Origin: Escherichia phage CLB_P2
Sequence record: OL770107
DNA length: 64,000 nt
Direction: 5' to 3' (one strand)
Made by a program: the position numbers and the translations under genes. This document shows, one piece after another, positions 18,858-32,910 of the stretch; position 1 is the first letter of the stretch; every line of letters starts with the position of its first letter. The notes under the pieces were generated by a model that ran no database searches, had not been told where the DNA came from, and saw nothing but the letters and a program-made list of their open reading frames with translations.

Positions 18858-18931
18858 GGCCCTGTAGCTGGACGGTCAAGCGAGCGACTCATAATCGCTG
18901 GATGGTGGTTCGATTCCACCCAGGGCCACCA
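18858..18931 (+). tRNA. tRNA with CAT anticodon (Met, or Ile if lysidine-modified)
   Basis: 74 nt cloverleaf: 7-bp acceptor stem ggccctg/cagggcc, anticodon loop cTCATAa, T-arm ggtgg-ttcgatt-ccacc, encoded CCA. Confidence 0.75.
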
Positions 18932-18935
18932 ATTT

Positions 18936-19010
18936 GGATGTGTAGCTCAGCGGTAGAGCAGTTGACTGTTAATCAATTGGTCCATGGTTCGAATCCATGC
19001 ATGTCCGCCA
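18936..19010 (+). tRNA. tRNA-Asn (GTT)
   Basis: 75 nt: acceptor stem with two G-U pairs, anticodon loop cTGTTaa, T-arm catgg-ttcgaat-ccatg, encoded CCA. Confidence 0.7.
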
Positions 19011-19014
19011 AATA

Positions 19015-19090
19015 CGAGGCATAGCTCAGAAGGAAGAGCAAGGACCTTCTAAGTCCTGGGTCGTAGGTTCGATCCCTACTGTCTCGACCA
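19015..19090 (+). tRNA. tRNA-Arg (TCT)
   Basis: 76 nt: acceptor cgaggca/tgtctcg (one G-U), anticodon stem aggac/gtcct with loop cTTCTaa, T-arm gtagg-ttcgatc-cctac, CCA. Confidence 0.75.
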
Positions 19091-30649: not shown

Positions 30650-30692
30650 GTTTACATCTCCTGTAGACGTGGTACTATAGACCTATCAACTA
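30650..30692 (+). promoter_or_regulatory. early promoter / stem-loop cassette (PeSL-like)
   Basis: GTTTAC -35; inverted repeat cctgtag/ctacagg around GGTACTAT; near-duplicate of the 28728 cassette. Confidence 0.55.
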
Positions 30693-30706
30693 CAGGAGAT
30701 TACAAA

Positions 30707-31717: not shown

Positions 31718-32074
31718 ATGATTAAACAGATGACTATAGCGCTTATGTTGATTGCTCCGGGAGTATTAGCATCACAGGTTGATGATACAAATAATTCAAT
31801 TGTCGAGTATGCCACCCGTACAGCAAAAGATTATTGTCATCCGAGTAATACTGAATGCGTTATTGAATTCAGTTCAAAAATAACAGCTGCTTTTAAAGAT
31901 GGACAGAACGACGTCGAGCATCGCCGAATGAAAGAGAAAACTCTTTCTAAAAGATACGAGCAACGTCTAAACGTTACTGAATGTGTTCCGTCTGATAAAA
32001 AGTACAAAGAAATGTGCGCGTCTATGGTAGACAGACTCGTTGACTCTTACAACCGAGGGCTAAACTCTAAATGA
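31718..32074 (+). CDS. small secreted protein
   Basis: 118 aa; N-terminal signal-like hydrophobic segment. Confidence 0.4.
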   Translation: MIKQMTIALMLIAPGVLASQVDDTNNSIVEYATRTAKDYCHPSNTECVIEFSSKITAAFKDGQNDVEHRRMKEKTLSKRYEQRLNVTECVPSDKKYKEMCASMVDRLVDSYNRGLNSK

Positions 32075-32544
32075 TTATTGATTATATTAAGGGCGATATC
32101 GTCGCCCTGTTTCTTCAAGGTAATATTATTGCACACGGGTGCAACTGTTTTCATACTATGGGTTCAGGGGTGGCTGGTCAATTAGCAAGGGCCTATCCTA
32201 AAATATTAGAAATTGATAAGACCACTACTGAATATGGTTCTCGTGATAAATTAGGTGACATGTCTATTGTTTTTAAACATAAGCCTACTGGGTTTGGTAT
32301 GTGTTATAATTTGTACACCCAATACGAACCAGGCCCTAATCTTGATTACGGTGCTTTAGTAAACTGTATGATAGAATTAAATCTACAAGCAAATGACCTT
32401 TTGTTTAAACCAAGAATTTATATTCCGCGCATAGGTTGTGGTATTGCTGGTGGTGATTGGGACAAGGTTTCTAAATTAATCGACATGTTTACTCCTGATA
32501 TTGATTTAATAGTGGTGGATTATGAGTCAAGTGCGAATTCTTAA
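32071..32544 (+). CDS. macro-domain protein (ADP-ribose binding/processing)
   Basis: 157 aa; HGCNCFHTMGSGVAG and IGCGIAGGDW correspond to the macro-domain Gly-rich phosphate-binding motifs. Confidence 0.55.
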   Translation: MIIDYIKGDIVALFLQGNIIAHGCNCFHTMGSGVAGQLARAYPKILEIDKTTTEYGSRDKLGDMSIVFKHKPTGFGMCYNLYTQYEPGPNLDYGALVNCMIELNLQANDLLFKPRIYIPRIGCGIAGGDWDKVSKLIDMFTPDIDLIVVDYESSANS

Positions 32545-32728
32545 AACGGCCAAATGTGAAAAATGTGAATGGCCTGTAATCGCAGCTTTATGCAACGATG
32601 AAATGAATTGCGAATATGATTACTGGTGGTATTGCTCTAATAAAGGCTGCTCTAATCATAAGGGTGAAGGTTTTCATTCTGGTTATTGCGAACATCCTAA
32701 ATTTGTGCGATATGGTGAACCTAAATGA
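32522..32728 (+). CDS. Cys-rich small protein (putative zinc-binding)
   Basis: 68 aa with several CxxC pairs. Confidence 0.4.
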   Translation: MSQVRILKTAKCEKCEWPVIAALCNDEMNCEYDYWWYCSNKGCSNHKGEGFHSGYCEHPKFVRYGEPK

Positions 32729-32910
32729 GTTTAAGTATTAGTCAGAAAAGTAGATTGTTTGAGCTTATCCATGAGCTTTTGGATGAGCATACAGAAGCAA
32801 ACGCTTTTTACGATGAATACGGCCCAATAGATGCCGAACATCAGGAAGAATTTGCTAATAGATTTGATGCGAAAGAAAACGAATTAATTGCTTATGTGAA
32901 TAGTCTTTAA
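32725..32910 (+). CDS. hypothetical small acidic protein
   Basis: 61 aa ORF. Confidence 0.35.
   Translation: MSLSISQKSRLFELIHELLDEHTEANAFYDEYGPIDAEHQEEFANRFDAKENELIAYVNSL

What the first reader, a model, noticed from the sequence alone, without database searches (positions are those of the whole stretch)
32071..32544. Macro-domain protein in the regB-tk interval
The 157-aa protein carries the two Gly-rich macro-domain motifs (HGCNCFHTMGSGVAG; IGCGIAGGDW). Macro domains bind or hydrolyse ADP-ribose derivatives. In a phage that itself uses ADP-ribosylation, and given host defences built on ADP-ribose signalling or DNA ADP-ribosylation, it could be an anti-defence or regulatory enzyme.
Basis: partly seen in the sequence, partly recalled or inferred. 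Interest (0 to 1): 0.55.

Follow-up and report, generated by a model that had tools for sequence, protein, structure and literature searches.

The report
Phage macrodomain that counters DarT2 defence
This gene is the Dhakavirus copy of phage T4 tk.4 (AdfM), a small ADP-ribose-removing macrodomain enzyme that in T4 protects the phage from the bacterial DarTG2 DNA-ADP-ribosylating defence, so it is real and correctly read, but already known.

Summary
The ORF at 32071..32544 (+), 157 aa, and both Gly-rich motifs are exactly as described. It is a confident macrodomain: Pfam Macro scores above its cut-off. The AlphaFold2 model has pLDDT 94.8, and its best solved-structure matches are TARG1, BT1257, Poa1p and DarG.

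The window is a Dhakavirus (JS98/dhabil-like). The gene is the syntenic orthologue of T4 tk.4 (57% identity, regB-vs.1-vs-tk.4-...-tk). A 2025 preprint found T4 tk.4 to be the only gene conditionally essential against DarTG2, and named it AdfM.

What this analysis adds:
- **Catalytic type.** The family carries an invariant Gln where DarG and TARG1 have their catalytic Lys. That places it with SCO6735/BT1257, which cleave thymidine-linked ADP-ribose from DNA with Gln and Asn; both are conserved here.
- **Separate lineage.** It is only remotely related to the PhiKZ protein that is also called AdfM.
- **Cassette exchange.** The tk.4-tk.2 cassette has moved between Dhakavirus and Tequatrovirus.

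Best explanation: an early-expressed orphan-antitoxin-like DNA ADP-ribosylglycohydrolase that reverses DarT2 damage. Hydrolysis by this allele is inferred, not shown. Verdict: observation confirmed, interpretation supported, already known, modest interest.

The parts
32071..32544 (+). tk.4 / adfM orthologue: a 157-aa single-domain macrodomain protein (stop codon included).
   Evidence: ORF and translation. Pfam Macro. 57% identity and E 1e-68 to T4 Tk.4. 97% identity to JS98 Tk.4. AF2 pLDDT 94.8. Foldseek matches to TARG1, BT1257, Poa1p and DarG.
32134..32178 (+). Motif 1, HGCNCFHTMGSGVAG (residues 22-36): the H-x-C-N motif plus the first Gly-rich ADP-ribose-binding loop. N25 (nt 32143-32145) is equivalent to SCO6735 N27, DarG N22 and PhiKZ gp104 N23.
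   Evidence: H22, G23, N25, C26, G33 and A35 are invariant in 62 family members. Alignments to reference proteins. The N27S mutant of SCO6735 is almost inactive. Mutating the conserved catalytic-site Asn of PhiKZ AdfM reduces activity; the paper's methods list an N23A construct.
32320..32322 (+). Codon CAA for Gln84. It is invariant in the family and occupies the position of the catalytic Lys84 of TARG1 and Lys80 of DarG. It matches Gln85 of SCO6735 and the Gln of BT1257.
   Evidence: Profile-to-sequence alignments. MAFFT alignment. Invariance. SCO6735 Q85A and Q85E mutants are inactive on dT-ADPr DNA.
32431..32460 (+). Motif 2, IGCGIAGGDW (residues 121-130): the second Gly-rich, diphosphate-binding loop. 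A126 occupies the position of TARG1 Asp125 and Poa1p Phe152.
   Evidence: G122, G124 and W130 are invariant; A126, G127 and G128 are conserved in at least 90% of members. The loop resembles SCO6735 GLAGGTW more than DarG GNGGLDW. In the alignment to 6lfu, the F152A mutant of Poa1p, the mutated position aligns with A126.
30651..30678 (+). Candidate T4-early-type promoter (GTTTACA, 16 nt, TG-n-TACTAT) upstream of regB. It is the likely start of the co-directional, tightly packed unit regB-vs.1-vs-tk.4-orf-tk.2-tk.
   Evidence: Consensus scan and sequence reading. Promoter-like sites are no more frequent in this region than in shuffles, so this is a lead and not proof. Gene spacing of -23 to +12 nt comes.
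31718..32074 (+). Upstream gene vs (valyl-tRNA synthetase modifier). Its TGA stop overlaps the tk.4 ATG (ATGA), which suggests translational coupling.
32090..32108 (+). A stretch conserved in all four phages compared, AGGGCGATAT(C/T)GTCGCCCT, forming an 8-bp GC-rich hairpin at codons 7-13. It coincides with the 5' crossover point of the tk.4 cassette exchange.
   Evidence: Terminator-like scan hit. Four-phage alignment, where only the loop base varies. Identity profile. Fold z-score is only -1.34, so a structural role is unproven.
32522..32728 (+). Downstream 68-aa Cys-rich ORF that overlaps the tk.4 3' end by 23 nt. It is the homologue of JS98 orf102 (RB32 ORF111c-like), not of tk.3, which is deleted in this phage.
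   Evidence: 94% identity to JS98 orf102 and no similarity to JS98 or T4 tk.3. Alignment of the deletion junction.

Best explanation
The gene encodes the Dhakavirus orthologue of T4 Tk.4 (AdfM). It is a stand-alone macrodomain that acts as an orphan antitoxin against the host DarTG2 defence.

Proposed sequence of events:
1. The gene is probably expressed early, as part of the regB-to-tk transcription unit.
2. The host toxin DarT2 attaches ADP-ribose to thymidine in TNTC motifs of single-stranded phage DNA, which blocks replication.
3. The macrodomain binds the ADP-ribose through its two Gly-rich loops. It hydrolyses the ribose-thymine bond, releasing free ADP-ribose and restoring the base.

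Catalysis is of the SCO6735/BT1257 type. Invariant Gln84, held in position by invariant Asn25, orients the distal ribose and a water network. It is not the lysine-based chemistry of DarG and TARG1.

Shown here: the ORF, the macro fold, orthology and synteny with T4 tk.4, and conservation of the SCO6735-type residues.

Shown in the literature: loss of T4 tk.4 sensitises T4 to DarTG2, and Gln-type SCO6735 hydrolyses dT-ADPr DNA and protects against DarT.

Inferred: that this 57%-identical allele does the same job, that protection comes from hydrolysis and not from toxin binding, and the timing of expression.
For: - **Macro fold.** Pfam Macro above its cut-off. AF2 pLDDT 94.8. Top Foldseek PDB matches are TARG1, BT1257, Poa1p, DarG of T. 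aquaticus and M. tuberculosis, and the Thermosipho DarTG fusion, with E 2e-9 to 4e-7 and TM 0.7-0.8.
- **Sequence matches to solved proteins.** BT1257, Poa1p, SCO6735, DarG and TARG1.
- **DarG models.** The PADLOC DarG model (E 3.4e-7) and the NCBIfam DarG model match over their macro halves.
- **Orthology.** 57% identity over 152 aa, E 1e-68 to T4 Tk.4. Same gene order as in T4 and JS98. It is the only macrodomain ORF in the window.
- **T4 genetics.** tk.4 was the only DarTG2-specific hit, and its knockout sensitised T4. T4 lacking adfA and adfN stays resistant to DarTG2, which had predicted such a factor.
- **Catalytic position.** Q84 aligns with DarG K80, TARG1 K84 and SCO6735 Q85; N25 aligns with SCO6735 N27. 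Both are invariant in 62 homologues.
- **SCO6735 biochemistry.** It cleaves dT-ADPr, its Q85A/E and N27S mutants lose activity, and it protects cells from DarT.
- **Phage precedent.** PhiKZ gp104, a phage macrodomain, removes DarT2 marks in vitro.
Against: - No experiment exists for this allele. The T4 protein it is compared with is only 57% identical, and T4 differs in the diphosphate loop (GIGKGNW against GIAGGDW).
- For T4 AdfM only genetics is published. Hydrolysis was inferred by the authors.
- The canonical Lys of DarG and TARG1 is absent. The non-catalytic ALC1 macrodomain also has Gln at this position.
- The long Lys-containing mobile loop that helps SCO6735 act on DNA is replaced here by a short conserved PGPN loop.
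- In a rough NJ tree the Tk.4 family forms its own clade and does not nest inside SCO6735/BT1257.
- The one bacterial homologue inspected is not next to a darT gene.
Confidence: 0.75

Rival explanations
1. It is a housekeeping small-molecule enzyme, as the database label 'phosphatase / A1pp motif' implies. It would be an ADP-ribose-1''-phosphate phosphatase or an O-acetyl-ADP-ribose deacetylase that clears ADP-ribose metabolites, for example by-products of RNA repair.
For: JS98 and T4 records annotate tk.4 as 'phosphatase; contains A1pp phosphatase motif'. Yeast Poa1p, an ADP-ribose-1''-phosphate phosphatase, is among the best sequence and structure matches and shares the H-x-C-N-C motif; its H23 aligns with H22 here. 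A comparative-genomics survey argued that phage macrodomains mostly target low-molecular-weight ADP-ribose derivatives.
Against: The only phenotype found for the T4 orthologue is specific to DarTG2. Poa1p F152 aligns with Ala126 here. The annotation is motif-based, not experimental. Many macrodomains show weak Appr1p activity in vitro without that being their physiological role (general knowledge of the family).
Confidence: 0.08
2. It protects without catalysis. The macrodomain would bind and block the DarT2 toxin directly, or shield ADP-ribosylated DNA. Allele diversity would then track toxin variants.
For: The catalytic Lys of DarG and TARG1 is replaced by Gln, as in the non-catalytic ALC1 macrodomain. 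Catalytically dead SCO6735 Q85A, DarG K80A and TARG1 K84A still inhibit DarT by interaction, and SCO6735 does so most strongly. The tk.4 cassette is unusually variable and has been swapped between phage genera, as expected for a protein that must fit a variable partner.
Against: The residues SCO6735 needs for hydrolysis (Asn and Gln) and both Gly-rich loops are invariant or nearly so across the family. ALC1 has lost the Asn (it reads HCVDD) and the second Gly-rich loop (it reads GHATKG). The protein has no DarT-binding C-terminal domain like that of DarG: it is 157 aa and matches only positions 1-147 of the 338-position NCBIfam DarG model.
Confidence: 0.1
3. Its main substrate is not DarT2-modified DNA but another ADP-ribosylated macromolecule. 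Candidates are uracil-ADP-ribosylated RNA, proteins modified by host or phage ADP-ribosyltransferases such as Alt, ModA and ModB, or nucleotide signals of Thoeris-type defences.
For: TARG1, DarG and SCO6735 also reverse uracil-linked ADP-ribosylation of single-stranded RNA. SCO6735 also acts on a Glu-linked protein substrate. T4-type phages encode ADP-ribosyltransferases of their own.
Against: No phenotype or assay links Tk.4 to any of these. The macrodomains that matched best here are described as acting on thymine/uracil-linked nucleic-acid, Glu-linked protein or Appr1p substrates, whereas the Alt and ModA target sites described are arginines. CmdT adenine-ADP-ribosylation of mRNA is described as irreversible, and CmdTAC gives robust defence against T-even phages (abstract listed). 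The literature searched gave no case of a phage macrodomain degrading Thoeris signals.
Confidence: 0.07

Closest known systems
T4 Tk.4 = AdfM (anti-DarT factor Macrodomain), bioRxiv 10.1101/2025.11.20.689424
   Same: Orthologue: 57% identity over 152 aa and the same length class (157 against 155 aa). It sits in the same position, directly after vs and before tk. It has the same H-G-C-N-C and N-L-Y-T-Q motifs.
   Different: A divergent allele class. The diphosphate loop reads GIAGGDW here (the family consensus) and GIGKGNW in T4. tk.3, which follows tk.4 in T4, is deleted here. No experiment has been done on this allele.
SCO6735 (Streptomyces coelicolor, PDB 5E3B) and BT1257 (PDB 2FG1/2AFC): Gln-type ALC1-like macrodomains
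   Same: Gln at the position of the TARG1/DarG catalytic Lys. A conserved Asn that locks it in place. The H-x-C-N motif and the G-[IL]-A-G-G-x-W loop. These are the best sequence matches among solved structures, with a profile E of 4e-20 for BT1257 and 2e-16 for SCO6735. SCO6735 cleaves dT-ADPr DNA and protects against DarT.
   Different: Identity to BT1257 is only 26% in the Foldseek alignment. The long Lys-bearing mobile loop after the Gln (MKTGSKGAP) is replaced by a short PGPN loop. These are bacterial chromosomal proteins, not phage ones. In a rough tree the Tk.4 family forms a separate clade.
DarG antitoxin macrodomain (M. tuberculosis 5M3I, T. aquaticus 5M31/5M3E)
   Same: Same fold class (TM about 0.74). 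Same predicted substrate, thymidine-linked ADP-ribose made by DarT2. Conserved Asn. The DarG HMMs match over the macro half.
   Different: Lys80 is replaced by Gln84. There is no C-terminal DarT-binding domain and no adjacent darT gene. The NCBIfam DarG score is 27.6 bits against a cut-off of 250. The protein is therefore DarG-like in role but not a DarG.
PhiKZ gp104, also named AdfM (Cell Rep 2026, PMC13309987)
   Same: A stand-alone phage macrodomain that counters DarTG2. For this protein, removal of DarT2 marks from DNA was shown in vitro.
   Different: It is a Lys-type, DarG-like sequence (FPTKDNW). BLASTP finds only 27% identity over 33 residues with the window protein, and it clusters with DarG in the tree. 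It is imported into the phage nucleus. The shared name covers two separate lineages.
Human TARG1/OARD1 (PDB 4J5R/4J5S)
   Same: The best Foldseek match (E 1.9e-9, TM 0.73-0.81). TARG1 also reverses thymidine-linked DNA ADP-ribosylation.
   Different: The TARG1 catalytic dyad Lys84/Asp125 corresponds to Gln84/Ala126 here, so the Schiff-base mechanism cannot apply.
Yeast Poa1p (PDB 6LFQ-6LFU), ADP-ribose-1''-phosphate phosphatase
   Same: A high-ranking sequence and structure match. It shares the IHSCNC / AHGCNC motif. It is the likely source of the 'A1pp phosphatase' and 'Poa1p-like' labels on phage tk.4 genes.
   Different: Poa1p F152 aligns with Ala126. Poa1p is longer because of insertions (aligned over 173 residues). 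A small-molecule role is not supported by the T4 genetics.

Membership tests
Macro domain superfamily (Pfam PF01661) | Sequence match to the family model above the curated threshold. | tested here: met
   32.1 bits against a gathering cut-off of 22, E 1.2e-7, covering 2-117 of 118 profile positions.
Macro domain superfamily (Pfam PF01661) | Three-layer alpha/beta/alpha macro fold. | tested here: met
   AF2 model with pLDDT 94.8 and pTM 0.89, with alternating strands and helices. 171 PDB matches at E <= 1e-3; nearly all of the 50 listed are macrodomains.
Macro domain superfamily (Pfam PF01661) | Two Gly-rich loops that hold the ADP-ribose diphosphate and distal ribose. | tested here: met
   MGSGVAG (G31, G33) and GCGIAGG (G122, G124, G127, G128) are invariant or at least 90% conserved. 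They align with the corresponding loops of TARG1, DarG and SCO6735. Ligand binding itself was not tested.
ALC1-like / TARG1-like macrodomain class | Closest structural and sequence neighbours are TARG1, DarG, SCO6735/BT1257, Poa1p and ALC1, not MacroD, PARG or viral Mac1. | tested here: met
   Foldseek ranks 1-16 are all TARG1, BT1257, Poa1p or DarG; coronavirus Mac1 and YmdB appear only from rank 24 on. The profile search gives the same order.
DarG antitoxin (type II TA, DarTG2) | Catalytic Lys (K80) in the PTKK motif. | tested here: not met
   The aligned residue is Gln84, which is invariant in the family.
DarG antitoxin (type II TA, DarTG2) | C-terminal DarT-binding domain (full length about 330-360 aa). 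| tested here: not met
   The protein is 157 aa. It matches only positions 1-147 of 338 in NCBIfam NF048014 (27.6 bits against a cut-off of 250) and 2-145 of 329 in the PADLOC DarG model.
DarG antitoxin (type II TA, DarTG2) | Encoded next to its cognate darT toxin gene. | tested here: not met
   The neighbours are vs and a Cys-rich small ORF, inside the conserved regB-tk block.
SCO6735/BT1257-type (Gln-type) thymidine-ADPr DNA hydrolases | Gln at the position of the TARG1/DarG catalytic Lys, plus the Asn that fixes its rotamer. | tested here: met
   Q84 and N25 align with SCO6735 Q85 and N27 and are invariant.
SCO6735/BT1257-type (Gln-type) thymidine-ADPr DNA hydrolases | Extended mobile loop with Lys89/Lys94 that aids DNA binding. 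| tested here: not met
   The window has the short loop YEPGPN with no Lys, where SCO6735 has HGMKTGSKGAP.
SCO6735/BT1257-type (Gln-type) thymidine-ADPr DNA hydrolases | Hydrolysis of DarT-made dT-ADPr on single-stranded DNA. | not testable with these tools
   This needs a biochemical assay.
AdfM of T-even phages (T4 Tk.4 orthologous group) | Orthology to T4 Tk.4: strong full-length similarity, and the only such gene present. | tested here: met
   E 1e-68, 57% identity over 152 of 157 aa. No second macrodomain among 426 six-frame ORFs of the window. The rest of the genome was not available.
AdfM of T-even phages (T4 Tk.4 orthologous group) | Conserved genomic position between vs and tk. | tested here: met
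   The order regB-vs.1-vs-tk.4-...-tk.2-tk is found in the window, JS98, PP01 and T4.
AdfM of T-even phages (T4 Tk.4 orthologous group) | Required for growth on DarTG2-carrying hosts. | not testable with these tools
   Shown only for T4.

The most novel reading that the evidence does not exclude
The T-even/Dhakavirus AdfM family is a distinct, third lineage of thymidine-ADP-ribose erasers. It uses Gln-based chemistry and lacks the DNA-binding loop of SCO6735. Its cassette-like exchange between phage genera, with two allele classes 57% identical sitting between near-identical flanks, would reflect selection for different targets. One possibility is that alleles are matched to different DarT2 variants through direct toxin binding in addition to hydrolysis. 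Another is that alleles differ in substrate range, for example thymine in glucosyl-hmC DNA against uracil in RNA. In that case the 'AdfM' function shown for the T4 allele would not transfer simply to this allele.
Probability: 0.2. Interest if true: 0.5.

Novelty: already known. Interest (0 to 1): 0.25.

Why it matters
The gene illustrates how T4-like phages stack enzymatic 'orphan antitoxins' against DNA-ADP-ribosylating toxin-antitoxin defences: AdfN for guanine marks and AdfM for thymine marks. That matters for predicting phage host range and for choosing therapeutic phages.

For this window the practical outcome is an annotation upgrade. 'Hypothetical protein / phosphatase' becomes 'AdfM-type anti-DarT2 macrodomain'.

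Two smaller points could interest specialists. First, the T-even AdfM has Gln, not the DarG lysine, at the catalytic position, so its chemistry should be modelled on SCO6735 and not on DarG. Second, the gene lies in a cassette that has been exchanged between Dhakavirus and Tequatrovirus, which fits an arms-race locus.

Tried and rejected
- **First structure job.** I re-ran it without that row.
- **PhiKZ AdfM as the same family.** Rejected. BLASTP gives only 27% identity over 33 residues. PhiKZ gp104 is Lys-type and clusters with DarG.
- **Origin from a bacterial DarTG operon.** The one chromosomal homologue inspected (Pelagimonas, 41% identity) has no darT neighbour, so this gave no support. 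Only one locus was examined.
- **Terminator-like hairpins inside the gene (32090-32108 and 32129-32144).** I treated them as not functional terminators. They lie inside the coding sequence, and the local fold is not significantly more stable than shuffles (z = -1.34). The first one is nevertheless conserved and marks the crossover point.
- **Promoter scan.** The number of sigma-70-like sites equals the shuffle expectation (15 against 15.6). I kept only the regB-proximal site, which reads like a T4 early promoter, and only as a lead.
- **MotA-box search.** A search for the MotA-box core TGCTT gave scattered hits with no convincing middle promoter in front of tk.4.
- **Literature.** I searched for phage macrodomains acting on Thoeris signals, for biochemical work on T4 Tk.4, and for a macrodomain role against CmdTAC. 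Nothing relevant turned up.
- **Reference sequences.** I first wrote out the M. tuberculosis DarG macrodomain sequence from memory. It was used only after the PDB search showed a 100% match to 5M3I. The TARG1 sequence used was copied from the alignment printed.
Full report
**1. The observation**

The ORF lister returns 32071..32544 on the + strand, with an ATG start and 157 aa. Its translation contains both quoted motifs, HGCNCFHTMGSGVAG at residues 22-36 and IGCGIAGGDW at residues 121-130. The ATG overlaps the TGA stop of the upstream gene (ATGA). The 3' end overlaps the next ORF by 23 nt.

The match is not a chance resemblance:
- Pfam Macro (PF01661) scores 32.1 bits against a gathering threshold of 22, at E 1.2e-7, over nearly the whole model.
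- PHROG 335 matches at 1e-70.
- The large protein collection holds 795 homologues at E <= 1e-3.

**2. What the window is**

A 3-kb stretch around the gene is 100% identical to Dhakavirus CLBP2, 99.7% to Escherichia phage dhabil and 96.8% to JS98. In JS98 the gene is annotated 'tk.4, phosphatase, contains A1pp phosphatase motif', within the order denV ... regB, vs.1, vs, tk.4, tk.3, orf102, tk.2, tk. T4 has the same order.

The window protein is 57% identical to T4 Tk.4 over 152 residues, at E 1e-68. A profile of the family finds no second macrodomain among the 426 six-frame ORFs of the window. The gene is therefore the syntenic orthologue of T4 tk.4.

**3. Fold**

An AlphaFold2 model built on 62 family members has mean pLDDT 94.8 and pTM 0.89. 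Foldseek against the PDB returns these matches at probability 1.00 and TM about 0.7-0.8:
- TARG1 (E 1.9e-9)
- BT1257
- Poa1p
- DarG of T. aquaticus and of M. tuberculosis
- the Thermosipho DarTG fusion

Coronavirus Mac1 and YmdB-type macrodomains rank lower. Sequence and profile searches of the PDB give the same set, and add SCO6735. The protein belongs to the ALC1-like/TARG1-like class.

**4. What is already known about the orthologue**

A bioRxiv preprint of November 2025 (10.1101/2025.11.20.689424) ran a transposon-insertion screen of T4 on E. coli expressing DarTG2. It found tk.4 as the single significant hit. A clean knockout sensitised T4 to DarTG2. The authors named the gene adfM (anti-DarT factor Macrodomain). 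They noted AlphaFold similarity to the M. tuberculosis DarG macrodomain and considered enzymatic removal of ADP-ribose from DNA 'likely'.

This fits earlier work. T4 lacking adfA and adfN (gene 30.3, a NADAR that reverses guanine marks made by DarT1) remained resistant to DarTG2, which predicted a further factor.

**5. Catalytic residues: the one place where a naive check would mislead**

I aligned the family profile to reference sequences. The M. tuberculosis DarG sequence was first written from memory and used only after a 100% match to 5M3I. The TARG1, BT1257 and SCO6735 sequences were copied from alignments printed by the PDB searches.

The invariant Gln84 of the family occupies the column of the catalytic Lys84 of TARG1 and Lys80 of DarG. 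Ala126 occupies the column of TARG1 Asp125.

SCO6735 and BT1257 also have Gln at this position. A 2022 study (PMC9411070) reports the following for SCO6735:
- It cleaves thymidine-linked ADP-ribose from DNA.
- Its Q85A and Q85E mutants are inactive.
- The N27S mutant, which loses the Asn that fixes the Gln rotamer, is almost inactive.
- It protects S. coelicolor from DarT.
- Even the dead Q85A mutant inhibits DarT by interaction.

In the window protein both equivalents, N25 and Q84, are invariant across 62 homologues. So are H22, G23, C26, G33, G122, G124 and W130. The second loop, GIAGGDW, resembles SCO6735 GLAGGTW more than DarG GNGGLDW.

Two cautions apply. The non-catalytic ALC1 macrodomain also carries Gln, although it has lost the Asn and the second Gly-rich loop. 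And the Lys-bearing mobile loop that helps SCO6735 act on DNA is replaced here by a short PGPN loop. The HIDEN-SEQ preprint mentions neither SCO6735 nor the Lys-to-Gln difference.

**6. Two different 'AdfM' proteins**

A 2026 Cell Reports paper (PMC13309987) independently gave the name AdfM to PhiKZ gp104. It showed in vitro removal of DarT2-made ADP-ribose from DNA and rescue from DarT2 toxicity.

I translated the construct sequence given in that paper. It is a Lys-type, DarG-like protein (FPTKDNW). BLASTP aligns only 33 residues with the window protein, at 27% identity. In a rough NJ tree it groups with DarG, while the Tk.4 family forms its own clade.

The in vitro evidence for PhiKZ AdfM is therefore a functional analogy and not evidence for this lineage.

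**7. Membership**

The protein is not a DarG:
- It has no Lys80.
- It has no C-terminal DarT-binding domain.
- It has no adjacent darT gene.
- It scores 27.6 bits against the 250-bit cut-off of the NCBIfam DarG equivalog, matching only the macro half.

It works like the macro half of DarG but is best filed as an orphan, Gln-type ALC1-like macrodomain of the T4 Tk.4/AdfM orthologous group.

**8. Context and expression**

The genes regB, vs.1, vs, tk.4, the 68-aa ORF, tk.2 and tk are co-directional, with gaps of -23 to +12 nt. A T4-early-type promoter sequence (GTTTACA, 16 nt, TG-n-TACTAT) lies at 30651-30678, just upstream of regB. Promoter-like hits are no commoner in this region than in shuffles, so early expression is an inference from this site and from what is known of T4 (my own knowledge).

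**9. Distribution and evolution**

tblastn finds homologues in 2,754 of 50,697 phage records, mostly phages of Escherichia, Klebsiella, Salmonella, Pseudomonas, Vibrio, Acinetobacter and Aeromonas. About 310 records carry an allele at least 90% identical to the window protein. T4 and T2 carry the 57% allele.

Comparing four phages shows cassette exchange. PP01, a Tequatrovirus, is 92-100% identical in DNA to T4 across regB-vs and across tk, but only about 50-65% identical in tk.4. There it is 86-91% identical in DNA, and 94.8% in protein, to the Dhakavirus window. The window's flanks are only 46-83% identical to PP01.

The 5' crossover lies within codons 6-14 of tk.4, at a stretch conserved in all four phages, AGGGCGATAT(C/T)GTCGCCCT. 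The 3' boundary lies near the tk.2/tk junction. Even between the window and JS98, tk.4 is more divergent (90-96%) than its flanks (98-100%).

Such local mosaicism fits an arms-race locus. It also means the T4 phenotype is transferred here across a 43% sequence gap.

**10. Mechanism, rivals and verdict**

Most likely (about 0.75): this is an early orphan-antitoxin-like DNA ADP-ribosylglycohydrolase that reverses DarT2 marks on thymidine, using SCO6735-type Gln/Asn-assisted water chemistry.

The rivals are:
- a small-molecule Appr1p/OAADPr enzyme, as the old annotation implies (about 0.08);
- non-catalytic sequestration of DarT2 or of modified DNA (about 0.10);
- another macromolecular or signalling substrate (about 0.07).

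The finding is real and correctly interpreted but already known: annotated as tk.4 since the JS98 genome, and assigned a function as AdfM in 2025. The residual interest lies in the Gln-type active site, the two unrelated 'AdfM' lineages, and the inter-genus cassette exchange.

Noticed in passing
window 32095-32895 (tk.4 to tk.2); compared with L003 (PP01), L002 (T4) and L001 (JS98): Cassette exchange between genera. PP01, a Tequatrovirus, is 92-100% DNA-identical to T4 in regB-vs and in tk. Its tk.4-tk.2 segment, however, is Dhakavirus-like: tk.4 is 94.8% identical in protein to the window but 58% to T4. About 310 phage records carry the Dhaka-type allele.
   Followed up: partly
window 32515-32530 (junction); JS98 L001 4523-4735: tk.3 is missing from this phage. 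A roughly 204-bp deletion between short TTATGA repeats at the start/stop overlaps joins tk.4 directly to the orf102-like ORF. It changes the Tk.4 C-terminal tail from ...YESTLPTSV to ...YESSANS.
   Followed up: yes
window 32522-32728 (+): A 68-aa Cys/His-rich ORF (CEKCEW...CNDEMNCEYDYWWYCSNKGCSNHKGEGFHSGYCEH), 94% identical to JS98 orf102 (RB32 ORF111c-like). It is probably a small zinc-binding protein of unknown function sitting inside the variable cassette next to the anti-defence gene.
   Followed up: no
window 32090-32108 (+): An 8-bp GC-rich hairpin (AGGGCGAT-ATC-GTCGCCCT) at codons 7-13 of tk.4. It is conserved at synonymous sites in both allele classes, including T4, where only the loop base varies. 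It coincides with the 5' recombination breakpoint. Whether it is a structural element or simply the shared microhomology used for exchange is unclear.
   Followed up: partly
window about 30655-30700 (+), upstream of regB: An 11-nt perfect inverted repeat, ATCTCCTGTAG ... CTACAGGAGAT. The first arm lies within the early-type promoter (GTTTACA, 16 nt, TACTAT at 30651-30678). The second arm covers the regB Shine-Dalgarno GGAG. In read-through transcripts from upstream it could sequester the regB ribosome-binding site, which is also a RegB target motif.
   Followed up: no
window 18858-19090 (+): A cluster of three tRNA genes (Met-CAT, Asn-GTT, Arg-TCT) separated by 4-nt spacers. This is much smaller than the eight-tRNA cluster of T4 (the T4 figure is from my own knowledge).
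   Followed up: no
T4 Tk.4 (L002 4923-5390, minus strand) against the family alignment A2: The experimentally studied T4 allele departs from the otherwise at least 90% conserved diphosphate loop (GIGKGNW instead of GIAGGDW). The window allele is closer to the family consensus than the reference protein is.
   Followed up: partly
L004 6001-6459 (Pelagimonas phthalicica chromosome): A bacterial homologue, 41% identical and with the same Gln-type motifs, sits as an orphan among unrelated housekeeping genes with no darT nearby. Stand-alone copies of this subfamily therefore also exist in bacteria.
   Followed up: partly
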